NCBI GenBank assembly: GCA_044226625.1
Contig: JBGAGQ010000063.1
Coordinates: 1-36,355 of the forward strand
Length of the DNA stretch: 36,355 nt
Source of the DNA: Thermoanaerobaculia bacterium
GTDB lineage: Bacteria; Acidobacteriota; Thermoanaerobaculia; Multivoradales; UBA5704
Direction: 5' to 3'
The notes below the pieces were generated by a model that was not told the DNA's origin, did no database searches, and saw nothing but the letters and a program-made list of their open reading frames with translations. The position numbers were made by a program, and so were the translations under genes. Shown piece after piece: positions 909 through 14,105 of this stretch (position 1 is the first letter of the stretch; the number at the start of each line of letters is the position of its first letter).

Positions 909-2717
909 TCAGCTCGAAAATCCGGCGTCGATCTCGGTCAGTCGCTTCCAGGCGAACCAGAGCGCCACACCCGCCGCGATCGAGAGCGCCCCGAGCCCCA
1001 ACGCCGCGCCGGTCCGGCCGTAGAGCCAGGAGCCCAAGGCGAACAGCGAGGCGTACAGGGTGGCGCTTCCGGCAAGCATACAGACGATCCCCATCGGGAC
1101 CGGCCAGATCTCATGAGCCCGTGCGGGCGGGAGCTCGCCGCGCGCGCGGGCTTCTTCGACGACCCGGCGCCAGCCGGGTCCACCGGGGTGCGTCCGGCGA
1201 ACGAACTCGACCAGCGTCCGCTCGTCCGTCGGCGCGGTGAGGAACGTCGCGCCGAGCCAGCACGCGGTGGTCACGGCGACCCCGACGAGAATCTGTTGCC
1301 ATCCAGGCAGCGAGGTCGGGACGAACGTGAAGTACGCCGCGACCAGCCCAGAGGCGATCATCGCCACGATTTCGCTCCAGGCGTTGATCCGCCACCAGAA
1401 CCAACGAAGGATGAACAGGAGCCCCGTCCCGGCCCCGATCTGGAGCAGGATCTGGAACGCCTGGAGCGCGTTCTGGAGCCGCAAGGCGAGGAGCCCGGCG
1501 AGGATCATCAAGACCACCGTCGTCGCCCTTCCCACCCTTACCTGCTGCTTGTCCGTCGCCTCGGGCGCCATGAAACGGCGATAGAAGTCGTGGACGACGT
1601 AGGACGAACCCCAGTTCAGATGGGTGGAGATCGTCGACATGTACGCCGCGGCGAGCGAGCCGACCACCAGACCGAGCCAGCCGACGGGCAGGAAGGTGAG
1701 CATCGCGGGATAGGCCAGGTCGTTCTTGACCGAGGCGGGATCGAGGTGAGGGAACGCGCGCCGCAGCGACTCGAGATCGGGGAACACCACGAGCGAAGCG
1801 AGCGCGACGACGATCCACGGCCAAGGGCGCAGGACGTAATGAGCCAGGTTGAAGAAGAGGGTCGCCCCGGTCGCGTGCCCCTCGGTCTTCGCGGCGAGCA
1901 TGCGCTGCGCGACGTAGCCGCCGCCCCCCGGCTCGGAGCCCGAATACCAGGCGGCCCACCACTGCACCGCGAGCGGCATCACGAACAGCGGAACGTAGAC
2001 CGTCGGGTCGTCGAAGCGGGGAAGCAGGTCGAGCCGGCTCGCGACCGCCGGGTGGGCGAGCAGTTGTCGGAGCCCGCCGACCTGCGGGTGATGGAGGGCC
2101 GCGACCGCCGCCACCACGGCGCCGGTCATCGCGACCACGAATAGCAGGAAATCGGTGAGCAGGACGCTGGTAAGACCGCCTGCCCCGGTGACCACCACGG
2201 TGATCGCCGCGGCGATCGCGATGGTTTCGAGCGGCGACCATTGGAACATCACGCCGCCGATCTTGATCGCCGCGAGCGTCACCACCGCCATCACCACGAC
2301 GTTGAAAAACACGCCGAGGTAGAGCGCGCGGAAACCGCGCAGAAACGCCGCGGGCCGGCCGCTGTAGCGCAGCTCGTAGAGCTCCAGATCGGTGAGCACC
2401 CCGGAGCGCCGCCAGAGCCGGGCGTAGACGAACACGGTGAGCATGCCGGTCAACGCGAACGCCCACCAGGCCCAGTTGCCGGCGACGCCGCCGGTCCGCG
2501 TGATGTCGGTCACCAGGTTCGGCGTGTCGGTGGAGAACGTCGTGGCGACCATCGAGGTGCCGAGCAGCCACCAGGGCATCGAGCGGTTCGAGGCGAAATA
2601 CGCCGATGCGTCGGTGCCGCCCCGCCGGGCGCGCAGGAATCCCGGCGCCAGGCCGACGGCGAGGGTGATCGCGAAGTAGACGATCAGGAGGGTCCAGTCG
2701 AACGCATGAAAGATCAA
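909..2717 (-). CDS. Sodium:solute symporter (SSS/SLC5) family sugar transporter
   Basis: Many TM helices; motifs WWLLGTSMVATTFSTDTP, SEPGGGGYVAQRMLAAK and AAYMSTISTHLNWGSSY. The probable TTG start overlaps the upstream stop (TTGA) and has a GGAGGAG RBS. Confidence 0.9.
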   Translation of the reverse strand: MIFHAFDWTLLIVYFAITLAVGLAPGFLRARRGGTDASAYFASNRSMPWWLLGTSMVATTFSTDTPNLVTDITRTGGVAGNWAWWAFALTGMLTVFVYARLWRRSGVLTDLELYELRYSGRPAAFLRGFRALYLGVFFNVVVMAVVTLAAIKIGGVMFQWSPLETIAIAAAITVVVTGAGGLTSVLLTDFLLFVVAMTGAVVAAVAALHHPQVGGLRQLLAHPAVASRLDLLPRFDDPTVYVPLFVMPLAVQWWAAWYSGSEPGGGGYVAQRMLAAKTEGHATGATLFFNLAHYVLRPWPWIVVALASLVVFPDLESLRRAFPHLDPASVKNDLAYPAMLTFLPVGWLGLVVGSLAAAYMSTISTHLNWGSSYVVHDFYRRFMAPEATDKQQVRVGRATTVVLMILAGLLALRLQNALQAFQILLQIGAGTGLLFILRWFWWRINAWSEIVAMIASGLVAAYFTFVPTSLPGWQQILVGVAVTTACWLGATFLTAPTDERTLVEFVRRTHPGGPGWRRVVEEARARGELPPARAHEIWPVPMGIVCMLAGSATLYASLFALGSWLYGRTGAALGLGALSIAAGVALWFAWKRLTEIDAGFSS

Positions 2718-4048
2718 AGAATCTCCTCCGACCCCGACCGGTGGAGCGGGCGAGCGCCCTCCGCCGCGGGAGTCCATAAGAAACGAGAACGACCGGCGTG
2801 CGCCGGAAACGCGGAGTGGTAGGCCTCGCGCCACGATCCGAGAAACCGTTCGATCTCAACCTCGGCCACCATCGCCCACACGCTGCCGCCGAAACCCGCG
2901 CCGAAGGCGGAGGCGGACGAGGCCCCGAGCTGTCGAGCCGAGCGCGCGAGGAAGATCGTCTCGGGAATCTGATTGCCGAGCAGCCGGGCGCCCAGCTCCT
3001 GCGACCGGTCGACGATCTCGCCGAACGCGGCGAGATCCCCCCGCTCCAGCGCGTCGCCCGCGGCGGGGACTAGCTCCTCGCTTTCGACCAGAAAATGGTC
3101 GACGCGGGTGGCGTGGACGCCGTTCGAAGCTCCGAGCCTCGAGCGAAACGCATCGGGCAGCGCATCGAGCGTTCGGGCGCCGGCGCGAGCCGCGATCTCC
3201 GCCAGATGCCTTTCGGCACTCCCCGTCGTCTGTCGCCAGATTTCGGCCGCTTCTGAGGCCAGCCGCGAGGCGCGGTTGTAGCGCTCGCGCGCTCCGTCCG
3301 CCTTCGCGGCTTCGACGCCGCTCGAAGCGATCGCGAAGACCTGGCCGGACAGGATGGGAATTCGGCGCTCGAAGACCACCGGGGCGTACGATGCCTGGAG
3401 CAGCTCGGCCGGCCGGCAGCAGAGGATCGCCGTGTGGTCCTCGCTGCCGCCGAACGTGCCGACGCCGTGGTCGCCGGCGAACGGTCCGAACGGATAGCCG
3501 TTCTCGACCGCGCCGAGGTAACCGGCGAGCGCCTCGGGGCGAGAGAGATGCTCGCGGAATCGCGGGTCGGAGAAGAGATCCCGGCGGGTCGCGAGCGCGA
3601 GGAACGAGGTGACTACGAACGCGCTCGACGACGACATGCCGGCCGCCGTCGGCAGGTCGTTGGTGAACGACAGATCGAGCCCGAGATCCGCCCTCGGATC
3701 AACCGCGGGAAAGTCGCGCGCCAACCGCCGAGCCACGGCGAGCGGGTAGCGCGCCCAGCCGGACGACGAGGCCGCGTTGGCGTCGAGCGGAACAACGGCC
3801 TGGACGCCGCGGGTCGCGTCGAAAAGCCGCAACCGCCTCCCCGCCGCAGGCACCGCCACCGCGAGGAATCCCTGTCGGGTCGCGGCGAGTAGGCTGCGCC
3901 CTCCGGCATAGTCGGTGTGCTTCCCGAGCACCTCGATCCGCCCCGGAACGAACCAGCCCCAGGCAGGCGCGTCCTCCCCATGCCCCTCTGCCGCGAGCGC
4001 CCGCGTCGCCTGGGCTACAGAGGTCGAGAGATCGCCCAGGCAGGTCAT
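2714..4048 (-). CDS. Galactokinase-family (GHMP) sugar-1-kinase
   Basis: PGRIEVLGKHTDYAGG (galactokinase signature variant), LPTAAGMSSSSA (GHMP P-loop) and GAGFGGSV. Real start is ATG 4048; the upstream extension in the ORF track overlaps the next gene. Confidence 0.85.
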   Translation of the reverse strand: MTCLGDLSTSVAQATRALAAEGHGEDAPAWGWFVPGRIEVLGKHTDYAGGRSLLAATRQGFLAVAVPAAGRRLRLFDATRGVQAVVPLDANAASSSGWARYPLAVARRLARDFPAVDPRADLGLDLSFTNDLPTAAGMSSSSAFVVTSFLALATRRDLFSDPRFREHLSRPEALAGYLGAVENGYPFGPFAGDHGVGTFGGSEDHTAILCCRPAELLQASYAPVVFERRIPILSGQVFAIASSGVEAAKADGARERYNRASRLASEAAEIWRQTTGSAERHLAEIAARAGARTLDALPDAFRSRLGASNGVHATRVDHFLVESEELVPAAGDALERGDLAAFGEIVDRSQELGARLLGNQIPETIFLARSARQLGASSASAFGAGFGGSVWAMVAEVEIERFLGSWREAYHSAFPAHAGRSRFLWTPAAEGARPLHRSGSEEIL

Positions 4049-4065
4049 CGCGTTCGGATCCGTTC

Positions 4066-4887
4066 TCAGATCTCCACGGTCCGGCCGCGGAGCTGCTCTT
4101 CGAGGTAGGGCACGTCGGATCGGTCCGTGAGATCGAGCATCGGCTCGGGCGAGACGATCACCCGAAACCGCGCGCCGGCCGCGATGAGCCCGGCCACTGC
4201 GCTCGGCAGCTCCAGCTCGCCGCGCGGCGACGGTCGCACGGTGCGGCAAGCGGCGAAGATCTCGGGCTCGAAGCGAAACGCGTTGATCCCGGCGAGGTAG
4301 ATCTCGCCGCTCGCGACCCGCGCGGTGTACTCCTCCGGCGGGGGCTTTTCGACGATCGCGGTCATGTAGCCGTCGGCATCGCATTCGATGCGCGCGAAGC
4401 TCGCGAACTTTTCGGACGTCAGATTCGGGCCGCCACGCGCCAAGACCTGCCCGCGATCGAGCACCAGATGCGCCCAGCCCGAAGCCTCCGCCAGCTCTCG
4501 GAGCGGGGCGACGGGGTAGAGGTTGTCGCCGTTCACCATGAGGAACGGAGCGTCCCTCGCGAACGCTTCGGCGGTGAGGAGCGCATCCGCCGTCCCCCGC
4601 GGCACGGCCTGAACGGCCGTCTCGATCGTCAGTCGCCGTGGCCGCAAGCTCGCGAGATGAGCGCCGAGCCCCTCGGAGTGCGGGCCAAGGACGACGAGCA
4701 CCCGCCGAATGCCGATCTCGGCGAGAGTGGAAAGCGCATGGTCGATCAGGCGGAATCGACCGAGCGGCATCAGAGGTTTGAGCCCCGCCTCGGCGACGGC
4801 CGTCTGCTCCGAAGAGAGCTGAACGGCAGGCTGCGCCAAGGCCAACCGCGAACCGCGGCCGGCGGCCAAGAGGACGGCTCGTTCCAT
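4066..4887 (-). CDS. Sugar-phosphate nucleotidyltransferase (NTP_transferase family), full-length copy
   Basis: AVLLAAGRGSRL, KPLMP, GTADA, MVNGDNLY, VEKP and SPRGELEL motifs of RmlA/GlmU-like NTP transferases. Confidence 0.9.
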   Translation of the reverse strand: MERAVLLAAGRGSRLALAQPAVQLSSEQTAVAEAGLKPLMPLGRFRLIDHALSTLAEIGIRRVLVVLGPHSEGLGAHLASLRPRRLTIETAVQAVPRGTADALLTAEAFARDAPFLMVNGDNLYPVAPLRELAEASGWAHLVLDRGQVLARGGPNLTSEKFASFARIECDADGYMTAIVEKPPPEEYTARVASGEIYLAGINAFRFEPEIFAACRTVRPSPRGELELPSAVAGLIAAGARFRVIVSPEPMLDLTDRSDVPYLEEQLRGRTVEI

Positions 4888-4938
4888 CGGGCTCCCGTCG
4901 AGAAGAGAAGTGGTGGAAGTGTAGCGGATGCGGCTTCG
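4288..4938 (-). repeat. Copy 1 of the triplicated nucleotidyltransferase promoter/5' region
   Basis: Aligns by eye with 5895-6540 (first 200 codons plus leader) and with 8459-8525 (leader plus first codons). Shared core is gaggacggctcgttcc(a/t)tcgggctcccgtcgaga; -10-like TACACT at 4918-4923 (minus). Confidence 0.9.
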
Positions 4939-5035
4939 TGCCCGAAGAGGCGCCAACCGTGATGCGAAGTCGCTTTCTGCTCCAGATTGCGGGAAGGGCG
5001 TAGAATCCCCAGAGGTCAGCCTCGACGGAGAAACC

Positions 5036-5347
5036 ATGCCCGCAATCACCCAATCCGAGCCAACCGAGAGGATTTCCCTCGAAGCGCCGTCTTCGGTCGT
5101 GAGGGAGCTGCCTCGCGACCCGGAAGAGCGCGCTGAAATTCTCCGCTTGGGCCTTCGCGAGTGGAAGATTCTGAAGGCATTGGAAGCTTATCGGAGGGGA
5201 GAGGGCACCCTTGCGTATGCCGCTCAACGTGCCGGGATTTCGCTTTGGGAGATCGGTGCGGTTGCTCACGCCCACGGGTTAGATCCAGATTTCGACTCCC
5301 GACTCCTTGAAGGCGAAAGGACCTTGGAGCGGGCCTCTCTCCTGTGA
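5036..5347 (+). CDS. UPF0175-family antitoxin (HTH)
   Basis: 103 aa with ALEAYRRGEGTLAYAAQRAGISLWE, typical of UPF0175. GGAG RBS and TAGAAT -10 at 5001-5006; the stop overlaps the PIN gene start (GTGA). Confidence 0.75.
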   Translation: MPAITQSEPTERISLEAPSSVVRELPRDPEERAEILRLGLREWKILKALEAYRRGEGTLAYAAQRAGISLWEIGAVAHAHGLDPDFDSRLLEGERTLERASLL

Positions 5348-5871
5348 TTGTCGTTTCAGATTCCGGACCCCTGATCGCATTAGCCAAGATCGACGCCTTG
5401 TCGGTCCTCTTCGGGCTCTACTGCGAAGTTCTTATCCCTCCTTCGGTTCTGGAGGAGACCGTGGGCGCAGGCTTGCGGCTTGGAGTCGTGGACGCACAGG
5501 CGGTAGAAACATTCCATTCCGCTGGCAAACTACGCGTCGTTGCCGTTCGGCCATAGACGATCAAGCTTCCCGAAGAGATCGACCTCGGAGAGCGGGACGG
5601 GATCCTTCTCGCGCTTCAGGAACAGGCAGATTGGCTTCTGGTCGACGATCTCCGCGGACGGAATCTGGCCGAGGAGGTCTTCTCGGATCAACGGGCGAAG
5701 ACCCGCATTCGAGGTACTTTGGGCCTGCTGGTCGAGGCTTTCCGAGAAGGCGTTCTCTCTCAGATGGAGACCCTCGATCGGTTGCGTTCTCTCGAGGCCC
5801 ACCCCGAGATCTGGCTTCACAAGAGTCTCATTGAGTGGGCGATCGGAACGGTTTCGAAGCAGTCAGGCTGA
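5344..5871 (+). pseudogene. DUF3368-type PIN-domain (VapC-like) toxin interrupted by an in-frame TAG
   Basis: MIVVSDSGPLIALAKID...IPPSVLEE; TAG at 5554-5556; the same frame continues IDLGERDGILLALQEQADWLLVDDLRGR...RGTLGLLVEA to TGA 5869-5871. Confidence 0.8.
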
Positions 5872-5891
5872 ACAGGCCCTGGCGAGGGTGG

Positions 5892-6494
5892 TCACCCGGC
5901 GAAGTCGGTCGCGGCGCTAGCGATCCGCGCGGCCTGCTCCTCGGCCGGGGGTTTCTCGACGATCGCGGTCATGAAGCCGTCGGCGTCGCATTCGATGCGC
6001 GCGAAGGTTGCGAATTTTTCGGACGTCAGATTCGGGCCGCCTCGCGCCAGGACCTGCCCGCGATCGAGCACCAAGTGCGCCCAGCTCGAAGCCTTCGCTA
6101 GCTCGCGGAGCGGTGCGACGGGGTAAAGGTTGTCGCCGTTCACCATCAGGAACGGGGAGTTCGCCGTGAACGCTTCGGCGGTGAGGAGGGCATCCGCCGT
6201 TCCGCTCGGCGTGGCCTGTATGGCCGTCTCGAGGGCCAGCCGACGAGGGCGCAAGCTCGCGAGATAAGCGCCGAGCGGCCCGGAGTGCGGGCCGAGGACG
6301 ACAAACACCCTGCGGATACCAATCTCGGCAAGTGTGGAAAGCGCGTGGTCGATCAGGCGAAATTGAACGAGCGGCATCAACGGTTTGAGCCCCGCCTCGG
6401 TGACGGCCGTCTGCTCCGGAGAGAGGTGAACGCCAGGCTGCTCCAAGGCCAACCCCGAACCGCGGCCGGCGGCCAAGAGGACGGCTCGTTCCAT
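5892..6494 (-). pseudogene. 3'-truncated diverged second copy of the nucleotidyltransferase (codons 1-200 only)
   Basis: About 85% aa identity to 4066-4887 by manual count. It stops after ...FAG, lacks the C-terminal ~73 aa, and the signature GRGSRL is changed to GRGSGL. Confidence 0.85.
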
Positions 6495-6617
6495 CGGGCT
6501 CCCGTCGAGAATAGGTAGGAGGAGTCTAGCGGATCGGCTCGGCCCTTTTGGATTTATGTGGTGTGAGGTTTTCGCCGAAAATTTTCGCGTAAAGCCCACC
6601 GCGAGGAGGATTGCCCC

Positions 6618-6917
6618 ATGCTCTTCATGGTCATCGAACGCTTCCGAGACGACGACATGATCCCGGTCTATCGACGCGTCCGCGACGTCGGACGCCAGCT
6701 TCCCGAAGGTCTCAAGTAAGTCGATAGTTGGGTGGAGCCGAGCTTCGGACGCTGCTTTCAGCTCATGGAATGCGACGATCTGCGACTCTTGCAGGAGTGG
6801 GTGCTCTCGTGGCGAGGTGCGGGGGTGACCTTCGAGATCGTTCCCGTCGTCCCGAGCCAAGATACGCGCGAGGTCGTGGCGCCGTTCCTGGAACCAAACG
6901 AAGCGGAGCCCACATGA
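6618..6917 (+). pseudogene. DUF3303-family small protein with an in-frame TAA
   Basis: RBS GAGGAGG, then MLFMVIERFRDDDMIPVYRRVRDVGRQLPEGLK*VDSWVEPSFGRCFQLMECDD...FEIVPVV. TAA at 6717-6719 sits where a Tyr codon would be expected. Confidence 0.75.
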
Positions 6918-6982
6918 CCTTTAGCAAGCTTCCTCACGTCAGTCGTAATCGCGATCCTATTGATCGGAAACGAGTTGAAAGA

Positions 6983-7633
6983 CTAGCCCTGTATTGTTCG
7001 TCCAGATGCCAATAGCTCGCGGACTTGATCTATAGTGAGCGGAGGATTCTGCAAATGGATCACCCGGTGGCAATTGGCACAGAGAATCGCGAGGTCTTCC
7101 AGGCTGGTGGTGGCAAAATCCTCAACCTCAGACAGAGGGACGAGGTGGTGAACCTCGCAATAGGCGCCAGCCAATTCACCGTAAGCGCTTTTGAACGAGA
7201 AGCCGCATGCCTCGCAGTCGAGAGATAATGCCTGTCGCTTCTTTCGACGAACGATCTCTTGGTTGCGTTCGCGTTGCAGGTGTAGAACTAACCTGCGCCC
7301 CCCCTCCGTGGCGAGGGTTCCATGGATGTCCACGTCGAGATCAGTGAATGCGTTGGGGGAGATCACGCGCACGTAACCAGGGATCGCGGAGATACCGGGC
7401 TTTCGAACGCTGATCTGTTTGCCGATCCTAATCTGCGGAGAAGTCCGATACTCGTCCTCAGTCGCGAATAGCACGTACCCGTGGGCATCGAAGAGCGCGG
7501 CGGGAAAGCGCGCGAGCCTGGCATACCAGTGGCCGTCGTGACTGAAACGAGACTGGATCGCGCCGACACCCCATTCTTCGTTGAGACTCTGGGCTCTGGT
7601 CCTGTTCAGTGCAGCCTTTGTTCTTCTATCCAT
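6983..7633 (-). CDS. McrA-like HNH endonuclease with an uncharacterised N-terminal domain
   Basis: EGGRRLVLHLQRERN, CEACGF, EVHHLVPLS and LCANCHRVIH. Visibly lower GC than flanks; TATACT -10 upstream. Confidence 0.85.
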   Translation of the reverse strand: MDRRTKAALNRTRAQSLNEEWGVGAIQSRFSHDGHWYARLARFPAALFDAHGYVLFATEDEYRTSPQIRIGKQISVRKPGISAIPGYVRVISPNAFTDLDVDIHGTLATEGGRRLVLHLQRERNQEIVRRKKRQALSLDCEACGFSFKSAYGELAGAYCEVHHLVPLSEVEDFATTSLEDLAILCANCHRVIHLQNPPLTIDQVRELLASGRTIQG

Positions 7634-7708
7634 ATCTGTCGTGGTTCGACCTAGAGTATAAGGTCGCCTGATGCTTTGCCGGCTCATAGAGTGTTTCCGG
7701 ACAATCAC

Positions 7709-8437
7709 ATGATCGCGATTGAGAAACGAGAGGTCCAGTTCGTCTGCCTTGTTTTCCTGGTGCTCGGGCTCGGGATCTCGGGATCGGCAGAGGCGAGCCC
7801 GCCGAAGGTCGGGGAGCCCGAACGGGTTTCGTTCCCTACCTCCGACGGCGGGACCGTCTTTGCGAATCTCTATGGCAACGGCGCCCGCGGCGTCGTGCTC
7901 GCGCATGGTGGGCGGTTCAATAAGGAGAGCTGGGATGCCCAGGCGAAGGATCTCGCGACGGCGGGGTTCCGCGCGTTGGCGATCGACTTTCGCGGCTACG
8001 GCCAATCGCGCGGACCCGGCTCGGACGACCCGCTGAGCGCGCCTCTTTATCAGGACGTTCTCGCCGCCGTTCGCTTCCTTCGCGGGCGAGGTTGCAAGGC
8101 GATCTCGGTCCTCGGCGGAAGCATGGGAGCGGGAGCCGCGGCCGACGCGGCGGTCGAAAGCCGGCCGGGCGAGATCGATCGAATCGTCCTGCTCGCCGGG
8201 CATGGCAGCCTTCCACCCCAGAAGATGAAAGGGCGCAAGCTGTTCATCCTCGCCCGGGACGACAAGATGGTCTCGGGGGTGCCCCGTCTGGTCGAGATCC
8301 GCAAGCACTACGACCGGTGCCCCGCGCCAAAGCAGCTAATCCTTCTGGAAGGCTCCGCGCACGCGCAGTTCCTTTTCGAGACCGATGAGACCGGCCGGCT
8401 GTGGCGCGAGATCTTGCGCTTTCTCGAGGCGCCTTGA
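7709..8437 (+). CDS. Secreted alpha/beta-fold hydrolase
   Basis: Signal-peptide-like N-terminus, VVLAHGG, DFRGYGQS, nucleophile elbow GGSMG and C-terminal GSAHAQ His. Confidence 0.85.
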   Translation: MIAIEKREVQFVCLVFLVLGLGISGSAEASPPKVGEPERVSFPTSDGGTVFANLYGNGARGVVLAHGGRFNKESWDAQAKDLATAGFRALAIDFRGYGQSRGPGSDDPLSAPLYQDVLAAVRFLRGRGCKAISVLGGSMGAGAAADAAVESRPGEIDRIVLLAGHGSLPPQKMKGRKLFILARDDKMVSGVPRLVEIRKHYDRCPAPKQLILLEGSAHAQFLFETDETGRLWREILRFLEAP

Positions 8438-8458
8438 ACCTAAGGTCCGGGCAATGTC

Positions 8459-8525
8459 GAGGACGGCTCGTTCCTTCGGGCTCCCGTCGAGAGGTGGCGG
8501 CAGGTTTCTAACGGATGCGGCTTCG
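8459..8525 (-). repeat. Third, short remnant of the nucleotidyltransferase promoter/5' end
   Basis: Matches 4870-4938. Reads DGSP-K-ERAVL with the ATG mutated to AAG; shares cggatgcggcttcg with copy 1. Confidence 0.85.
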
Positions 8526-8592
8526 CCTCCTAATGTACCTGCCAGTTTTTGCGGAGAAAACGGGGATGAAGCTCGAGCCGGTCGCGTCGCAC

Positions 8593-8776
8593 CTAGCCCG
8601 AACTTCTCACCGGGCTTCTGCTGCGGCGGAAAATCTGCCGGCGCCTGCTGCGTTGCGCTTGTTCGTACTCCTCGACGGAGTGTCAACTACGCCTACGTCG
8701 TCCTCCCTTCGCGCGCCTTGCATTCACCGGCATCTTTTCCGCCTCGCTACGAAACTCTGTGAGAAATTCGGGCTAG
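8593..8776. mobile_element. 184-bp non-coding palindromic element (MITE/REP-like) with terminal inverted repeats
   Basis: Ends ctagcccgaacttctcac / gtgagaaattcgggctag (17/18 complementary); inner arms ggcggaaaa..tgccgg / ccggca..ttttccgcc; CTAG at both ends. Confidence 0.7.
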
Positions 8777-9135
8777 AGAGGAAGCAGTCGTACCCGCGAA
8801 GTCGCCGCGTCGATGACAGCCAGTGCGCCCTTCTCGAGCAGGTCTTGGTGCTGCCGTAGCGTAGAGACAACGAGAAGGCCGATGCTGGTCGGGAGAACGT
8901 CCTCGGTGCGAACTTGGACGATGCTGGGGCCATCGGCGCGCGTTAGGGCAAGAAGGCGGGAAAAGTCGAGGTCGTGAGAGAAGACAACGAAGCCCTTCTC
9001 CCGAGCCCATGCCAAAATCTCCGGATCGCTAGCTCTCTGATCACCGATTCGGGTCCAATGAGCAGCCTCGATGCCGTGTTGGTAGAGAAACCCCTCCCAC
9101 AGAGGAGAGAGATTCATGTCGATGAGAATCTTCAC
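8773..9135 (-). CDS. DUF5615-family PIN-like toxin (VapC45-like)
   Basis: MKILIDMNLSP, ASDPEILAWAR, VVFSHDLDF and GPSIVQVR. The GTG start overlaps the DUF433 stop (GTGA). Confidence 0.85.
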   Translation of the reverse strand: MKILIDMNLSPLWEGFLYQHGIEAAHWTRIGDQRASDPEILAWAREKGFVVFSHDLDFSRLLALTRADGPSIVQVRTEDVLPTSIGLLVVSTLRQHQDLLEKGALAVIDAATSRVRLLPL

Positions 9136-9362
9136 AAGCCTCCTACCAACACCTCTCGTTCCTCGACGCGCCACGTAGCGTAGGCCAAGGCGGCGCGAAT
9201 GTCGCCGAGTTCAAGATAGGGGTAGGAAGCGAGGACCTCGTCTTCGGAGTGCCCCGAGGCCAAGAGCCCCAAGATCGTTCCGACCGTGACGCGAATCCCT
9301 CGGATGCAGGGCTTCCCCCCCATGACTTCCGGGTCGAGGGTGATGCGGGCTAGGTCGCTCAT
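9132..9362 (-). CDS. DUF433-family antitoxin
   Basis: RITLDPEVMGGKPCIRGIRVTV...YPYLELGDIRAALAYA; GGAGG RBS. Confidence 0.9.
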   Translation of the reverse strand: MSDLARITLDPEVMGGKPCIRGIRVTVGTILGLLASGHSEDEVLASYPYLELGDIRAALAYATWRVEEREVLVGGL

Positions 9363-9490
9363 GGCTTACCCTCCGAGAGGTAACGCCCAATATATCCCGC
9401 GAGACGCACAGTGCGTCCGTGCCGAACTCGCGCCGCGCACTCCGGTCTGGTCGCGTACGCGCCTAGGGTGCAGGCTCCCGGTTTTTCGAA

Positions 9491-10066
9491 TCAACCGGAG
9501 CCGAGAGCAGCCGCCGCGTCGATCAGCTCCGCGAACGCGAGCAGATCGGCCTCCGTGGCGTTCGGGCAGAGCCACCGGATATTCAGGTTGTCCACCGTCT
9601 CCGGCCGCCTGAGATAGGCAAGCGCCTCGTCGACGCAATCGTGCTCGACGAGGAAGCGCTTGAGGTCGTTCATGAAGGTTCCGGCGCTGAATAGGTGGTA
9701 GTTGAAGAATCCCTGCACCAGCACCCCTTCGAGGAATGTCTCGGGCGAGCGGAGAGCGATGCGCGACCAGGCCTCGGTCGAGATCACCGAGCCGCGGGCG
9801 AGGTCGACCGCCACCTCCGTGAGATCGGTCGCCTCGTCCGCCTCGCCTTCGCGAAGCTGCCAGCGGGTGAAGTGGATCAACCGCACCAGGTTGACCGTCT
9901 GGACCGCGAGCAGCGCCCAGACCGGGTGATCGCGGGGGAGATCGTCGAGGCGTTCGAACGTTCGCCGTACGGCCGCCAGCAGCTGCGTCCGCAGGGGGCA
10001 CGGCGATCCTTCCACCAAGAACCAGAGGTCCTGGGCGATGACCCGCTCGATCTCCTCCGCGCTCAA
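9491..10066 (-). CDS. Hypothetical protein
   Basis: Open frame with GC-rich third positions and protein-like composition filling the gap downstream of the VOC gene. Start uncertain (TTG 10066). Confidence 0.55.
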   Translation of the reverse strand: MSAEEIERVIAQDLWFLVEGSPCPLRTQLLAAVRRTFERLDDLPRDHPVWALLAVQTVNLVRLIHFTRWQLREGEADEATDLTEVAVDLARGSVISTEAWSRIALRSPETFLEGVLVQGFFNYHLFSAGTFMNDLKRFLVEHDCVDEALAYLRRPETVDNLNIRWLCPNATEADLLAFAELIDAAAALGSG

Positions 10067-10079
10067 CGGGCTGGCGGCC

Positions 10080-10481
10080 TCAGCCGTTTCCCTGGGGCTC
10101 GGTGATCGTGTACTTGAAGCCGTCGGGATCCGCGACCGAGAAGCCCTGCGGCCCCCAGGGGAGCTTCTGCACCTCGGCTTCGAGCGCATACCCGGCCGCC
10201 TTCACCTGGTTGGCGAGCGCGTGGAGATCCTGCTCGGTCTCGACCCAGAAGCGGAGGCCGACGCCCTTCACCCGATCGCGCCCCTTGGCGAAGTCGTCCT
10301 GGCCGAGGCCGAGGAGGCTCGAACCTCCTTTGAGCATGACGAAGCGGAGCTTCCCCTCGTGCTCGTCGCGATCGAGGATCTCGAAGCCGAGCCCCTCGGT
10401 GTAGAACTTCAGGCTCGCGTGGATGTCGTTGCAGGTCAGGCCAGGTGCGATTCCCTTGCCCTCCAGTTTCACGTCGCCCAT
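10080..10481 (-). CDS. VOC/glyoxalase family protein
   Basis: SLKFYTEGLGF and LPWGPQGFSVADPDGF; AGGAGG RBS before ATG 10481. Confidence 0.9.
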   Translation of the reverse strand: MGDVKLEGKGIAPGLTCNDIHASLKFYTEGLGFEILDRDEHEGKLRFVMLKGGSSLLGLGQDDFAKGRDRVKGVGLRFWVETEQDLHALANQVKAAGYALEAEVQKLPWGPQGFSVADPDGFKYTITEPQGNG

Positions 10482-10509
10482 CGTCGTTCCTCCTTTTCTT
10501 GAGGGGAGG

Positions 10510-10538
10510 AACATACGCGAGCGGCCGGAGGACGGCAA
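10510..10538 (-). promoter_or_regulatory. Candidate sigma70 promoter of the VOC gene
   Basis: TTGCCG-17 bp-TATGTT on the minus strand. Confidence 0.5.
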
Positions 10539-10546
10539 CCGATCTC

Positions 10547-11362
10547 TTAGACCTGGACGGAGACGCGCAAGTAGGTGGCCGAGATCGAGGTGCTCCCATC
10601 CGTCGCCCGATTCTGCTCGTTCGCGAGATCGAGCAGCTGGGCGTGCAGCGCCTCTTCCCGGCCGCCGACGCGCGCCGCTTCGAAGGCGTTCATCGTCGGG
10701 CCGTAGTAGCGGCGGAACAGCTCGACCAGGTCGCTCGGGCTCTTGTCGGGAGCGACGAAATGGAAGGTGTCTCGCGTCATCGAGAGGTTCCGTTCGTCGA
10801 CACCCGCTTGAGTGAAGCGCTCGACGACGTGCGACTCGACGCCCCAAGTCATCGGGCTCACGAATCCCGCGGGCGGCGGGGGAGTGAACGCCGAGCTGAT
10901 CTTGAGCAGCTGGGAGACGAACGAGGAGGGGTCGTTCGGAATCCAGTTGCCCATCTCGATCCGGCCCCCCGGCCTGGTCACCCGCACCATCTCTCGGGCG
11001 ACCGCGAACGGTTGCGGCGCGAACATGGCGCCGAAGACCGAGAGCGTGAGGTCGAACGAGTCGTCTTCGATCCCTTGGAGCTCACAGGCGTCCCCTTCGA
11101 CGAACTCCAGCCTCTCCAGGCCGGCGGTCTCCGCGCGCCGGTTGCCCGCCGCCACCAGGTTGGACGCGATGTCGATGCCGAGCACCTGGGCTCCCCGCTC
11201 GGCGAGCGGAACCGCCGTGGTGCCGTCCCCGCAGCCGAGGTCGAGGGCCCGAAGCGGCGGCTCGACGCCGAGCGCCTCGACCAGCGCCTCGCCGGACCCC
11301 CGCATCAGGGCGGCGATCTCGGTGAAGTCTCCTTTTTCCCACAACGCTTTGTTCGGGTTCAT
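10547..11362 (-). CDS. Class I SAM-dependent methyltransferase
   Basis: LDLGCGDGTTA (motif I), FVEGDACEL, SFDLTLSVFGAMF and RVTRPGG; GGAGG RBS before ATG 11362. Confidence 0.9.
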   Translation of the reverse strand: MNPNKALWEKGDFTEIAALMRGSGEALVEALGVEPPLRALDLGCGDGTTAVPLAERGAQVLGIDIASNLVAAGNRRAETAGLERLEFVEGDACELQGIEDDSFDLTLSVFGAMFAPQPFAVAREMVRVTRPGGRIEMGNWIPNDPSSFVSQLLKISSAFTPPPPAGFVSPMTWGVESHVVERFTQAGVDERNLSMTRDTFHFVAPDKSPSDLVELFRRYYGPTMNAFEAARVGGREEALHAQLLDLANEQNRATDGSTSISATYLRVSVQV

Positions 11363-11471
11363 AGACCCTCCTCTCAAGAACAGGATCGAAATTCGGAGGA
11401 GAAACCCGACAGGCGAAGCGAAAGGATCTCGAAGGTGGGTCGGGAGCGCCGCTCCCAGGGGCTTCTCCGCG

Positions 11472-14105
11472 CTACGGCCCGCCGAGCTCCGCGAGGCGGG
11501 CTTTGGCCCGCACGACCCGGGGATCGGTGGCCGGAAGCGCGGCCGCCAGATCGGCGCAGCTCGTCCGCAACAGCGGCAGCGCCTCGTCCCGACGCCCGAG
11601 CGCCAGGAGGGCGGCCCCCATTTCGTTCTGCACTTCGGCGATCCGATAGTGGTGCGGGGCGAAGACGGCGACCCGGGTCGGCAGCGACCGGTCGAGGAGG
11701 ACGAGGGCCTCTTGGGCGTCCCCGCGGGCGAGCAGAAGTCGGGCGAGGGCGACCATCGGGCGCGAGGTGTTCAGGTGGGCCGGGCCGTAGGACTTCTCGA
11801 TCATCGCAAACGACCGCCGCAGCTCCGCCTCGGCCTCCGCTTCACGCCCCATGCGTCGGTGGAGATCGCCCAGGTTCGAGAGGGTGAGCCCGGTGAGGGG
11901 ATGCTCCGGGCCGAGAATCTTTCGGCGCATCGCGAGCGTCTCGAGGTAGCGGGCCTCGGCCTCTTCGTAGCGTCCTTCGTACATCAGATTGGTCGCGATG
12001 CTGTCGAGGGTGAACGCGATGTCCGGATGGGCTTCCCCGAGCCGGCGCCGCTGCCCGGCCAGCGCCTCCTGGAACGCGGCGTCGGCCTCGGTGAGCTTGC
12101 CCCGCTCTCCGAGCATCACGGCGTATCCCTGGAGGAGCTCGCAGATCAGCGGGTGATCGGGAGCGAAATTGCGCCGGGCGATGCGGAGGGCGAAAGCAAA
12201 GTAGCCGAGCGCCGCGCCCGACTCCCCTTGGCGGCCGCGCACCGTGGCGAGGTAGGAGAGGCTCGATGCGACGAGGGGATCGTTCGGTCCGAGCTTCTTC
12301 AGCCGGATCGCGAGGGCCTCGCGTTGGGCGGCGTAGGCCCCCTTCAGATTTCCCTGCTGGAAGCGGGCTCGGCCGAGCATCTCGAGAGTCGCCGCGCGGT
12401 CCAGGTCGGCGACCGCGCCGAGCTTCTCTTGTTGGATCTGGCAGGAGGTGAGGATCTGCTCGGCGCGGGCGTGCTGACCCCGGACGAAGAGGACGTAGCC
12501 GAGCTGATATTGGTAGATCAACCGTTCGGCGTCCAGAGCCCCGGATCGCGCGCCGAGAGAGGCCGCGCGCACGATCAGGGGGCCCGCTCGATCGAAAGCC
12601 CCGAGGTTCAAATAGACGTCGCCGATCACGCTCGCGAGATGCGCTTCGACCTGGGGATCTCCTTCCACCTGTTGCAGGAGATGACGGGCGCCGAGATCGA
12701 GCACCTCCTCGACCGTCGGCTTCGAGCTGGCCGCACGCGCGTTTGGATCGGCGCCGCGGAACAGGTCGACCAGGAGCGACAGGGCGCGCTCCGAGCGATC
12801 GTGCTCGCGCGCGATCCGTCGCGCCTGGGCCGACGCGAAGAATCCATAAGCCAAGCTCGAAAGGAAGAGGAGCCCCGCGAGACCCGCGGCGAGCGGGTTG
12901 CGCCGGAGGAATTTCTTCGCCCGGTAGCCCCAACCGTCCGGGCGCGCTTCGACCGGAAGATGCTCGAGGTAGCGCCGGAGGTCCTCGCCGAGCCGCTCGA
13001 CCGAGGGATATCGCCGCTCCGGCTCGTGGCGCAATGCCTTCTGGAGAATGTTGTCGAGATCTCCGGACAGCTGGCGGGCGAGCCCTCGCGGCGTCGTCGC
13101 GCGGCGGCGGGCGATCTCCTCCATCGAGACCGGCATGCCGCGCTCGGTCGGCTCGATACGCCGCGCCCTTCGGTTCGAGGTGTCCGCCTCTCCGCGGGCG
13201 ACGGTGTTGGGCCAGGTGGGCGAGGTGCGGGGGAGCGCGCCGGTGAGCAGTCGAAACAGCACCACGCCGAGCGAATAGATGTCGGTCGCTGTGGTGACGG
13301 GCTCGCCGCGCAGCTGCTCGGGGCTCGCGTAGCTCGGGGTGAGAGCGGGGGAGATCGTCCGTCCGCCCTCCTCGTCGAGCTCGTTGGGCGACAGAACCTT
13401 GGCGATGCCGAAGTCGAGCAGTTTCGGCGCTCCATCCGCTCCGACCAAAATGTTGCTCGGTTTCAGGTCGCGATGGACGACGAGGTTCTTGTGCGCGTAG
13501 GCGACCGCCGCGCAGACCGTTCGAAACAGCCGAATGCGCTCGACGATCGACAGCCTTCGCTCGTCGCAGTGGCGGTCGATCGGCAGACCGTCGACCCGCT
13601 CGAGGACGAAGTAGGGGACGCCGTCCTCGGTCGTGCCGCCGTCGAGCAGGCGGGCGATGTTCGGATGCTCGAGCCGCGCGAGGATCTGCCGCTCCTGCAC
13701 CAGTCGCTCGGCGAGTCGCGGATCGAAGAGCCCCGGGTAGACCAGCTTGACCGCGACCTGGTGCTCGTAGGCTTGATCGGCCCGTTCGGCAAGGTAGACC
13801 ACGCTCATGCCGCCGCGGCCGATCTCCCGCACCAGGATGTAGTTGCCGACGCGCCTCCCGGCCCATCCGTCGGCGGGCCCCTTCACCGCGCCGCCGCCGG
13901 CGGGCCCCGCCGGGTTCACGGAATCGGGCCGGCGCTCCAGGAACGAGCCGGCTTCGCCGTGCGCCGCGAGCAGCGAGCCGACTTCTCTTTCGAGGTCCGA
14001 GTCGTCGCGGCAGGCCTCGGCGAGCCAGGCGGCGCGTTCGCCCTCGGGCCGTTCGAGAGCCGCGTCCAGCAGATCGAGAACCCGGCGCCAGCGTTCAGCG
14101 TCCAG
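11472..14105 (-). CDS. Membrane Ser/Thr protein kinase with C-terminal TPR repeats (ECF-associated)
   Basis: GRGGMSVVY, VAVK, HRDLKPSN, DFG and YASPEQ, followed by a TM helix and TPR-like repeats (LGxxHP). The typical N-terminal helix (DAERWRRVLDLLDAALE) extends the frame to a CTG at 14103-14105 with GGAGG 6 nt upstream. Confidence 0.9.
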   Translation of the reverse strand: MDAERWRRVLDLLDAALERPEGERAAWLAEACRDDSDLEREVGSLLAAHGEAGSFLERRPDSVNPAGPAGGGAVKGPADGWAGRRVGNYILVREIGRGGMSVVYLAERADQAYEHQVAVKLVYPGLFDPRLAERLVQERQILARLEHPNIARLLDGGTTEDGVPYFVLERVDGLPIDRHCDERRLSIVERIRLFRTVCAAVAYAHKNLVVHRDLKPSNILVGADGAPKLLDFGIAKVLSPNELDEEGGRTISPALTPSYASPEQLRGEPVTTATDIYSLGVVLFRLLTGALPRTSPTWPNTVARGEADTSNRRARRIEPTERGMPVSMEEIARRRATTPRGLARQLSGDLDNILQKALRHEPERRYPSVERLGEDLRRYLEHLPVEARPDGWGYRAKKFLRRNPLAAGLAGLLFLSSLAYGFFASAQARRIAREHDRSERALSLLVDLFRGADPNARAASSKPTVEEVLDLGARHLLQQVEGDPQVEAHLASVIGDVYLNLGAFDRAGPLIVRAASLGARSGALDAERLIYQYQLGYVLFVRGQHARAEQILTSCQIQQEKLGAVADLDRAATLEMLGRARFQQGNLKGAYAAQREALAIRLKKLGPNDPLVASSLSYLATVRGRQGESGAALGYFAFALRIARRNFAPDHPLICELLQGYAVMLGERGKLTEADAAFQEALAGQRRRLGEAHPDIAFTLDSIATNLMYEGRYEEAEARYLETLAMRRKILGPEHPLTGLTLSNLGDLHRRMGREAEAEAELRRSFAMIEKSYGPAHLNTSRPMVALARLLLARGDAQEALVLLDRSLPTRVAVFAPHHYRIAEVQNEMGAALLALGRRDEALPLLRTSCADLAAALPATDPRVVRAKARLAELGGP

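What the first reader, a model, noticed from the sequence alone, without database searches (positions are those of the whole stretch)
4288..8525. Integrase-free cargo array punctuated by three copies of one gene's promoter and 5' end
The nucleotidyltransferase leader (-10 TACACT/TAGACT/TAGAAA, RBS region, first codons) occurs at 4870-4938, ~6478-6540 and 8459-8525. The copies decay in order: intact gene; 200-codon copy with a mutated GxGxR motif; ~6-codon stub with ATG>AAG. Unrelated cargo lies between them (TA pair; DUF3303 + HNH + hydrolase). In both cases a convergent cargo gene stops only ~21-23 bp from the break point (5871 vs ~5895; 8437 vs 8459). Many copy1/copy2 differences are at third codon positions, which suggests an allele from a relative rather than a fresh duplicate. 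Inference: serial accretion of foreign, partly defensive DNA anchored on homology to this gene, each event supplying a new gene start and leaving the old one behind. No recombinase is in the window.
Basis: partly seen in the sequence, partly recalled or inferred. Interest (0 to 1): 0.75.

Follow-up and report, generated by a model that had tools for sequence, protein, structure and literature searches.

The report
Stacked old gene starts with cargo
Upstream of a sugar-activating operon, two dead older copies of the first gene's start lie in a row with toxin-antitoxin, nuclease and hydrolase genes between them, as if new DNA had repeatedly been spliced in by ordinary homology without a dedicated recombinase.

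Summary
The leader and 5' end of a sugar-1-phosphate nucleotidyltransferase gene (NT, minus strand) occur three times and nowhere else in the window. They are an intact gene (4066-4887), a 200-codon truncated copy (5895-6494) and a 67-nt stub with ATG>AAG (8459-8525).

Copies 1 and 2 are 87% identical over 600 nt, without gaps, and dN/dS is 0.25-0.31. Copy 2 carries 20 lineage-specific residue changes against 9 in copy 1, several at invariant sites. It therefore diverged mostly as a working gene and decayed after truncation.

Between the copies lie:
- a UPF0175/PIN toxin-antitoxin pair, with a nonsense codon in the toxin;
- DUF3303, also with a nonsense codon;
- a McrA-like HNH nuclease;
- an alpha/beta hydrolase.

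No integrase or transposase was found in 150 of 170 long frames.

The best reading (confidence 0.5) is serial 5'-end displacement: one homologous exchange plus one illegitimate joint per event. It mirrors rhs and T6SS 3'-displacement arrays.
- the hydrolase is typical of the lineage, not foreign;
- promoter function is unverified;
- variation among relatives and read support could not be tested.

It is a new variant of a known kind, of moderate interest.

The parts
4066..4887 (-). NT1: intact sugar-1-phosphate nucleotidyltransferase gene (273 codons plus stop). It is the first gene of the operon NT - GHMP kinase (2714-4048) - SSF symporter (909-2834) - GH109-like oxidoreductase (1-1110).
   Evidence: Pfam NTP_transferase, E 6.6e-16. 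NCBIfam gives only sub-threshold hits, so substrate is unassigned. Operon partners.
4888..4938 (-). Leader copy 1 (-1 to about -51). Homology with the other copies ends here.
4939..5894 (+). Cargo A. It holds a UPF0175-like antitoxin (5036-5347) and a DUF3368/PIN toxin (5344-5871) interrupted by an in-frame TAG at 5554-5556. A 23-nt tail (5872-5894) runs to the junction.
   Evidence: Pfam hits are weak: UPF0175 at 18.5 bits and DUF3368 at 20 bits, both below gathering score. The two toxin halves match PADLOC PDC-S70 positions 1-49 and 70-156 of about 161. GC3 is 0.63 and 0.66.
5895..6494 (-). NT2: truncated copy, codons 1-200. A TGA supplied by the cargo side at 5892-5894 closes the frame.
   Evidence: 87.2% nucleotide and 83% residue identity to NT1, ungapped. 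dN/dS is 0.25-0.31. There are 20 NT2-branch changes against 9 on the NT1 branch, including R14G, H77Y, R97S, G137S and E195A at sites invariant in 5 outgroups.
6495..6545 (-). Leader copy 2.
6546..8458 (.). Cargo B. It holds DUF3303 (6618-6917, +) with an in-frame TAA at 6717-6719, a McrA-like HNH endonuclease (6983-7633, -) and a secreted-type alpha/beta hydrolase (7709-8437, +). A 21-nt tail runs to the junction.
   Evidence: Pfam matches DUF3303 profile positions 1-35 and 37-90 on either side of the stop, plus HNH and Abhydrolase families. HNH matches PADLOC mREase_IV at 3.7e-6 and PDB 6ghc McrA at 4e-5, in the HNH motif only. GC3 values are 0.75, 0.63 and 0.80.
8459..8525 (-). Copy 3: leader plus six codons, with the start codon changed to AAG.
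8526..9362 (-). Flank of copy 3. It holds a 184-nt imperfect palindrome (8593-8776), DUF5615 PIN-like toxin (8773-9132) and DUF433 antitoxin (9132-9362). Host-like genes follow from 9491.
   Evidence: Hairpin MFE is -83.5 kcal/mol, z = -4.75. Pfam DUF5615 at 9.9e-21 and DUF433 at 1.4e-25. GC3.

Best explanation
This is a serial 5'-end displacement array built by homology-anchored, recombinase-independent insertion.

Twice, DNA from a related bacterium entered. It carried that bacterium's own version of the NT leader and gene start, together with whatever lay upstream of it there. It was joined to the resident locus by one homologous exchange within or downstream of the NT gene and one illegitimate joint.

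Two routes give the same product and cannot be told apart from it:
- homology-facilitated illegitimate recombination (HFIR) of a linear fragment;
- single-crossover integration of a circular intermediate.

Each event put a new leader, gene start and upstream flank next to the operon. It pushed the previous start further upstream as a dead fragment whose length depends on where the illegitimate joint fell (after codon 6, then after codon 200). The shared upstream limit near -51 to -55 would be the edge of the sequence the operon needs, beyond which related genomes differ.

Shown: the anatomy, the decay, the selection history of copy 2 and the absence of a recombinase in the window. Inferred: the order of events, the related donors and the recombination route.
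For: 1. There are three copies and no others, all in direct orientation and in register.
2. The displaced fragments have different 3' limits (codon 6 and codon 200) and the same 5' limit. Beyond about -55 the three upstream flanks share nothing: local alignment scores of 20, 16 and 13 against shuffle means near 15.
3. No identity block sits at the displaced ends. The last 60 nt of copy 2 are its second least similar part at 78%, close to the 77% of nt 241-300.
4. Copy 2 diverged mainly under purifying selection and then decayed. dN/dS is 0.25-0.31. The branch changes are 9 against 20, with hits at invariant residues.
5. NT1 and NT2 are each other's nearest relatives. They are 83% identical, against 75-80% to the nearest database protein. 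The partner genome was therefore a close relative.
6. The hydrolase in cargo B is typical of the lineage, as expected if cargo B is the native upstream flank of a related donor.
7. No recombinase was found in 150 of 170 long frames. The window has no tRNA gene.
8. Published models for rhs C-terminal displacement (circular intermediate plus single crossover; passages of PMC2935791) and for T6SS effector-immunity arrays (HFIR; passages of PMC5361080) produce this anatomy at 3' ends. That includes conserved fragments of variable length, low-GC cargo and degenerate displaced copies.
Against: - No donor, empty site or variant arrangement was seen. The nearest genomes that could be fetched are <= 48% identical and have another gene order. 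None of the 21 fetched loci has a second NT fragment.
- Microhomology at the joints cannot be assessed without donor sequence.
- Both illegitimate joints lie 21-23 nt after a cargo gene's stop codon. Random joints do not predict this.
- Recombination between sequences 13% diverged is expected to be inefficient (general knowledge). The 56-nt exact run from -18 to +38 (equalled or exceeded in 590 of 20,000 shuffles) could serve a circular-intermediate crossover. The linear route, however, needs an exchange 3' of codon 200.
- An integrase could lie outside the 36-kb window.
Confidence: 0.5

Rival explanations
1. These are decayed tandem site-specific islands. Two small integrative elements that target the 5' end of the NT gene, and carry a surrogate leader and gene start, integrated one after the other. 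Their integrases were later deleted or lie outside the window.
For: - A regenerated target plus a displaced fragment marking island ends is the hallmark of integrase-borne islands (abstract of PMC4383910, search listing).
- Both cargo blocks begin at the same position relative to the gene.
- Toxin-antitoxin and nuclease genes are common island cargo.
- Copy 3 ends exactly at the end of the 34-nt block shared by all copies.
Against: - No integrase or recombinase was found in 150 of 170 long frames.
- The displaced fragments end at different points (codon 6 against codon 200), so there is no common crossover site.
- There is no identity block at the end of copy 2 (78% in its last 60 nt).
- Cargo A has only 956 nt of non-homologous DNA, so nearly all of an element would have to be gone.
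- There is no DNA match to 72,556 plasmid or 50,697 phage records.
Confidence: 0.2
2. The copies arose in place by tandem duplication or triplication of the leader-NT unit in one genome. The paralogues then diverged, and later insertions with deletions removed the 3' parts of the upstream copies.
For: - The copies are direct and in register. Copy 2 begins exactly one repeat unit (1607 nt) after copy 1.
- NT1 and NT2 are each other's nearest relatives.
- The common -55 limit could be the edge of the duplication unit.
Against: - A simple 1607-nt tandem duplication predicts a second cargo A after leader 2, and different DNA is there.
- If copy 2 had been truncated from birth, its whole branch would be neutral. 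That predicts overall dN/dS near 0.55 and a far larger excess of residue changes than the observed 20 against 9.
- Keeping two or three full-length paralogues under selection, and then making two separate insertion-deletions that each end exactly at -55 of the next unit, needs more events.
Confidence: 0.12
3. The array is an assembly artefact. Three strain variants of the flank upstream of NT were concatenated in one contig.
For: - The window looks metagenome-derived: its proteins have only unnamed metagenomic near relatives.
- The three segments resemble alternative flanks of one locus.
- Read support could not be checked.
Against: - The joints do not lie at shared words. Copy 3 shares at most 17 exact nt with the others, because ATG>AAG splits the block. 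Junction A shares 8 nt with copy 1.
- Copy 2 carries substitutions at residues invariant in 5 outgroups, and an excess of changes. A real truncated pseudogene would show this; a working allele from another strain would not.
- Cargo genes carry nonsense codons, which fits long residence.
Confidence: 0.08

Closest known systems
rhs C-terminal displacement arrays (Jackson et al. 2009, PMC2935791; passages read)
   Same: - An intact gene lies beside a string of dissociated fragments of the same gene.
- The fragments retain variable lengths of conserved sequence.
- Cargo of lower GC lies between them.
- The displaced fragments are degenerate, with stops.
- No dedicated recombinase is involved; the proposed route is a circular intermediate plus a single homologous crossover.
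   Different: - This array is the mirror image. The 5' end with leader and start codon is replaced and shunted upstream, not the 3' tip shunted downstream.
- The gene is a sugar nucleotidyltransferase heading a salvage-type operon, not a polymorphic toxin.
- The cargo is not toxin tips with immunity genes.
- The copies are 13% diverged, whereas the core sequences in that paper are reported as identical.
T6SS effector-immunity arrays formed by sequential displacement (Kirchberger et al. 2017, PMC5361080; passages read)
   Same: - Insertion is serial and anchored on a conserved stretch.
- Old modules are pushed along the array.
- HFIR is the proposed route.
- No integrase is involved.
   Different: - Those arrays keep orphan immunity genes under selection.
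- Here the leftovers are dead gene starts.
- The cargo is toxin-antitoxin pairs, a nuclease and a hydrolase.
- No strain comparison is available here.
Homology-facilitated illegitimate recombination in transformable bacteria (de Vries and Wackernagel 2002; Prudhomme et al. 2002; Meier and Wackernagel 2003; seen only as entries in the reference list of PMC5361080)
   Same: Each event has a one-sided homologous anchor plus one illegitimate joint, and foreign DNA is added next to the anchor.
   Different: These are laboratory events with known donors and with microhomology at the joints. Here the donors are unknown, microhomology cannot be tested, and competence of the host is unknown.
Integrase-borne islands that restore their target gene (Islander, PMC4383910, abstract in a search listing; the e14/icd case is recalled and comes from no call)
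   Same: Direct repeats consist of a regenerated gene end and a displaced fragment. The surrogate end differs mostly at silent sites. Tandem stacking occurs.
   Different: No integrase is present. The displaced fragments have no common crossover point. The target is the 5' end of a protein-coding gene, not a tRNA or tmRNA 3' end.

Membership tests
Integrase-borne genomic island with target restoration | Integrase (tyrosine or serine recombinase) gene inside the island | tested here: not met
   Pfam scan of 150 of 170 frames >= 100 aa across the window found no integrase, transposase or resolvase at E <= 1e-5. The 20 frames of 100-114 aa were not scanned.
Integrase-borne genomic island with target restoration | Direct repeats made of the regenerated target end and a displaced fragment bound the inserted DNA | tested here: met
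   Copies at 4288-4938, 5895-6545 and 8459-8525 bound cargo A and cargo B.
Integrase-borne genomic island with target restoration | One fixed crossover position, with an identity block at the end of each displaced fragment | tested here: not met
   The fragments end after codon 6 and after codon 200. The last 60 nt of copy 2 are 78% identical to copy 1.
Integrase-borne genomic island with target restoration | Target is a tRNA or tmRNA gene (the usual case) | tested here: not met
   ARAGORN found 0 genes in the window. The target is a protein-coding gene.
Displacement array (rhs / CDI / T6SS type) | Intact gene plus dissociated fragments that keep variable lengths of the conserved part, in direct orientation | tested here: met
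   The copies hold 273, 200 and 6 codons, all on the minus strand. The array is at the 5' end, not the 3' end.
Displacement array (rhs / CDI / T6SS type) | Displaced fragments silent and degenerating | tested here: met
   Copy 3 has ATG>AAG. Copy 2 has R14G and other changes at invariant sites, with 20 branch changes against 9.
Displacement array (rhs / CDI / T6SS type) | The gene is a polymorphic toxin and the cargo is toxin tips with immunity genes | tested here: not met
   The gene is an NTP_transferase. The cargo is toxin-antitoxin pairs, DUF3303, HNH and a hydrolase.
Displacement array (rhs / CDI / T6SS type) | Array content varies between strains | not testable with these tools
   The genome-contig scan returned only relatives at <= 48% identity.
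Homology-facilitated illegitimate recombination product | Microhomology of a few bases between donor and recipient at the illegitimate joint | not testable with these tools
   The donor sequence beyond the joints is unknown. Junction contexts are printed.
Integron / attC cassette array | attC sites after cassettes and an intI gene | tested here: not met
   No integrase was found. The Rfam E-value scan of 3500-11500 gave only a weak CcsR1 hit (E 0.21). The two cargo ends are not similar: score 11 against shuffle means of 9.0-11.8. Whether Rfam holds an attC model was not checked.
Type II toxin-antitoxin pairs (cargo) | Adjacent small antitoxin and toxin genes of known families | tested here: met
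   DUF433 and DUF5615 score above Pfam gathering scores. UPF0175 and DUF3368 score below gathering scores, but the toxin matches PADLOC PDC-S70. That toxin has an in-frame TAG.
Type IV (modification-dependent) restriction nuclease, McrA-like (HNH cargo gene) | HNH motif plus a modified-DNA-binding N-terminal domain | tested here: inconclusive
   The HNH motif matches McrA (6ghc, E 4e-5, residues 136-195 only) and PADLOC mREase_IV (3.7e-6). The N-terminal 125 residues match no family.

The most novel reading that the evidence does not exclude
The conserved leader-start block may act as a recombinase-free landing pad. On this reading, any fragment that ends in this about 70-nt leader and gene start can be stacked upstream of the operon by the host's own homologous recombination. 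Exchange between the resulting direct repeats releases circles that can re-enter related genomes. That would give an integron-like cassette exchange without an integrase. It would accumulate toxin-antitoxin and nuclease genes, and addiction modules would protect the array against repeat-mediated loss.
Probability: 0.12. Interest if true: 0.7.

Novelty: new variant of a known kind. Interest (0 to 1): 0.45.

Why it matters
If the reading holds, the displacement process described for the 3' ends of polymorphic toxin genes is not special to them. It can also act at the 5' end of an ordinary metabolic operon and build a small island of toxin-antitoxin and nuclease genes with no dedicated recombinase.

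Dead gene starts in series would then be a searchable footprint of past homology-anchored insertions. They would also keep a stratified record of what lay upstream of the gene in earlier donors. That would allow recombinase-independent island growth to be measured in uncultured lineages such as the Acidobacteriota-like source of this window.

Tried and rejected
- **Locus comparison in relatives.** The two Gemmatimonadales loci have the order SSF-NT-GHMP, so they do not inform on this flank. None of the 21 loci has a second NT fragment at E <= 0.01; a six-codon stub would not be detected this way.
- **Search for an NT2-type full-length allele.** Among 376 hits, none is closer to NT2 than NT1 is.
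- **Shared site at the cargo ends next to the two joints.** Rejected: local score 11 against shuffle means of 11.8 and 9.0.
- **Homology among the three flanks beyond -55.** Rejected.
- **Structured leader RNA.** Rejected. The consensus fold has 0 compensatory pairs among 15. The single folds are no better than shuffles, with z of +1.0 to +1.4.
- **Sigma-70 promoter at the leaders.** Not found.
- **Rfam families in 3500-11500.** Only a weak CcsR1 hit, E 0.21, far below gathering score.
- **Plasmid and phage origin of 4888-9400.** No DNA match in either collection.
- **Contig co-occurrence as a proxy for adjacency of hydrolase and NT in relatives.** Only the 579,950-nt longest-contig length is shared. 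That suggests the two genes share a contig in one relative but does not show adjacency, and no small contig is shared.
- **Position-wise switch of which copy is nearer the outgroups (a crossover footprint).** None is evident in the site table.
- **Literature searches for a 5'-end version.** Searches returned only 3'-end or integrase cases. One search ('N-terminal displacement' with 'horizontal gene transfer') returned 0 papers. These searches are not exhaustive.

Full report
**Setting.** The window is GC-rich chromosomal DNA (about 70% GC). Its core genes include a lysine-biosynthesis cluster, a TonB-dependent receptor, an ECF sigma factor and a Ser/Thr kinase with TPR repeats. The nearest named homologues of two of its proteins are from Acidobacteriota (Thermoanaerobaculia) MAGs, so the source is probably an uncultured member of that phylum.

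On the minus strand, four genes form a sugar-salvage-type operon:
- a sugar-1-phosphate nucleotidyltransferase, NT1 (4066-4887);
- a galactokinase-like GHMP kinase (2714-4048);
- an SSF symporter (909-2834);
- a GH109-like oxidoreductase (1-1110).

NCBIfam gives only sub-threshold hits for NT1, so I assign no substrate.

**The observation.** It holds at the stated coordinates.
- Copy 1 (4288-4938) and copy 2 (5895-6545) align without gaps in the coding part, at a constant offset of 1607 nt. Blastn gives 86.7% over 648 nt.
- Copy 3 (8459-8525) matches both with E of 1e-10 to 1e-11.
- A 34-nt block spanning the Shine-Dalgarno-like GGGAG, the start codon and codons 2-6 is present three times with at most one mismatch. 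It is never present in 100 shuffles.
- Nothing else in the window is repeated. No other fragment of any gene of the region is hidden there.
- The decay series is as described: 273 codons; then 200 codons with R14G in GRGSR; then six codons with ATG>AAG.

**Cargo.**
- Segment A (4939-5894) holds a UPF0175-like antitoxin and a DUF3368/PIN toxin. The toxin's two halves match positions 1-49 and 70-156 of one PADLOC profile, so it is one gene with an in-frame TAG at 5554-5556.
- Segment B (6546-8458) holds three genes. DUF3303 has an in-frame TAA at 6717-6719, with Pfam profile positions 1-35 and 37-90 on either side. There is an HNH endonuclease whose HNH motif resembles McrA. There is an alpha/beta hydrolase with a signal-peptide-like start.
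- To the right of copy 3 lie a 184-nt imperfect palindrome and an intact DUF433/DUF5615 pair. Host-like genes follow.

GC3 separates the parts. Core genes have 0.78-0.90, NT1 0.85, NT2 0.81 and the hydrolase 0.80. UPF0175, PIN, HNH and DUF5615 have 0.63-0.66.

HNH homologues are 65-75% identical in Actinomycetota, Verrucomicrobiota and Acidobacteriota records, which is the pattern of a gene that moves between phyla. The hydrolase is different. It has thousands of homologues, and its nearest are at 76-80%, the same distance as NT's nearest relatives (77-81%). One of them has the same longest-contig length, 579,950 nt, as an NT homologue. So 'foreign, partly defensive' fits the toxin-antitoxin pairs and HNH, but not the hydrolase.

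**History of copy 2.**
- Of 77 nucleotide differences, 37 are at third positions. dN is 0.09 and dS is 0.29-0.36, giving dN/dS of 0.25-0.31.
- I polarised the 34 residue differences with five outgroup proteins. Nine fall on the NT1 branch, 20 on the NT2 branch and 5 are ambiguous. The NT2 changes include sites invariant in all five outgroups.
- If copy 2 had been truncated from its birth, its whole branch would be neutral. Overall dN/dS would then be near 0.55, and the excess would be far larger than 20 against 9.
- The data fit a gene that diverged under constraint and spent roughly the last 13-21% of its branch as a pseudogene. That figure is my calculation, assuming a functional dN/dS of 0.10-0.15.
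- NT1 and NT2 are each other's closest relatives, so the partner genome was a near relative.
- The same decay signature argues against a strain-chimeric assembly, as do the joints. Copy 3 shares at most 17 exact nt with the others, and junction A shares 8 nt with copy 1.

**Boundaries.**
- All three copies lose similarity at the same upstream point, about -51 to -55. Beyond it the flanks are unrelated.
- The downstream limits differ: codon 6 and codon 200.
- No identity block marks the displaced ends. The last 60 nt of copy 2 are 78% identical to copy 1.
- Seven of the 20 NT2-branch changes fall in the last 17 codons (P = 0.0009, with the window chosen after seeing the data).
- The two cargo ends at the joints share no site.
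- No integrase, transposase or resolvase was detected in 150 of 170 frames of >= 100 aa, and there is no tRNA gene.

**Mechanism.** The anatomy is what one homologous exchange plus one illegitimate joint per event produces. The incoming DNA may be a linear fragment, with the anchor 3' of the joint (HFIR). It may instead be a circle carrying leader, gene start and upstream flank that integrates by a single crossover. The final structure does not distinguish the two.

The common upstream limit is then the edge of what the operon needs. Beyond that edge related genomes differ, and selection removes rearrangements that reach further in.

Both routes are already proposed for 3'-end arrays:
- a circular intermediate for rhs C-terminal displacement (passages of PMC2935791);
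- HFIR for Vibrio T6SS effector-immunity arrays (passages of PMC5361080).

The present array is their mirror image at the 5' end of a metabolic operon. The order of events, the relatedness of the donors and the route are inferences.

**Rivals.**
- Decayed integrase-borne islands (0.2) explain the repeats and the common upstream limit. They do not explain the unequal displaced ends or the missing integrase.
- In-place duplication (0.12) explains the register. It fits the selection history poorly, and it predicts a second cargo A that is absent.
- Assembly chimera (0.08) is disfavoured by the joints and by the pseudogene signature, but I could not check it against reads.

**What stays open.**
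- Promoter function of the leader: no sigma-70 match was found, and the leader is not structured.
- Why both joints lie 21-23 nt after a stop codon.
- Why substitutions cluster next to junction A.
- Above all, whether relatives vary at this locus. 

Literature searches found no description of a 5'-end version, but they were not exhaustive.

**Verdict.** This is a real and tidy structure. I rate it a new variant of a known kind, with interest 0.45.

Noticed in passing
window 8593-8776: A 184-nt imperfect palindrome with nested arms (26 nt at 85% and 24 nt at 79% complementarity). MFE is -83.5 kcal/mol, z = -4.75, with 0 of 200 shuffles folding as well. It starts at the stop codon of the DUF5615 gene. 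It occurs once in the window and matches no Rfam family. It could be a MITE/ERIC-like element or a long 3' hairpin.
   Followed up: partly
window 5554-5556 and 6717-6719: Two cargo genes are each broken by a single in-frame nonsense codon and not by frameshifts: TAG in the PIN toxin and TAA in DUF3303. The neighbouring antitoxin is intact.
   Followed up: partly
window 5895-5945 (NT2 codons 184-200): Seven of the 20 residue changes specific to the truncated copy cluster in the 17 codons next to junction A. That is 12 differences in 51 nt against 65 in 549 nt elsewhere (post hoc P = 0.0009). This may be a mark of the joining event, but it is unexplained.
   Followed up: partly
window 5892-5894: The cargo side supplies a TGA stop immediately after codon 200 of the truncated copy. 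The leftover frame is therefore closed exactly at the joint.
   Followed up: no
window 4850-4905 and 6457-6512: Copies 1 and 2 share an exact run of 56 nt from -18 to codon 13, silent sites included, although they are 87% identical overall. The run is equalled or exceeded in 590 of 20,000 shuffles. This may reflect constraint on the initiation region or later gene conversion.
   Followed up: partly
window 6983-7633: The HNH protein belongs to a family kept at 65-75% identity across Actinomycetota, Verrucomicrobiota and Acidobacteriota records. Some sources name it McrA-like. Its N-terminal 125 residues match no Pfam, NCBIfam or PADLOC family.
   Followed up: partly
L014 395-4828; L017 8190-12147: In two Gemmatimonadales loci the same three gene types occur in the order SSF symporter - NT - GHMP kinase. 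In the window the order is NT - GHMP - SSF.
   Followed up: no
window 9491-10189: A 232-codon frame with host-like GC3 (0.84) matches no Pfam, NCBIfam or PADLOC family. It lies between the DUF433/DUF5615 pair and a glyoxalase gene.
   Followed up: no
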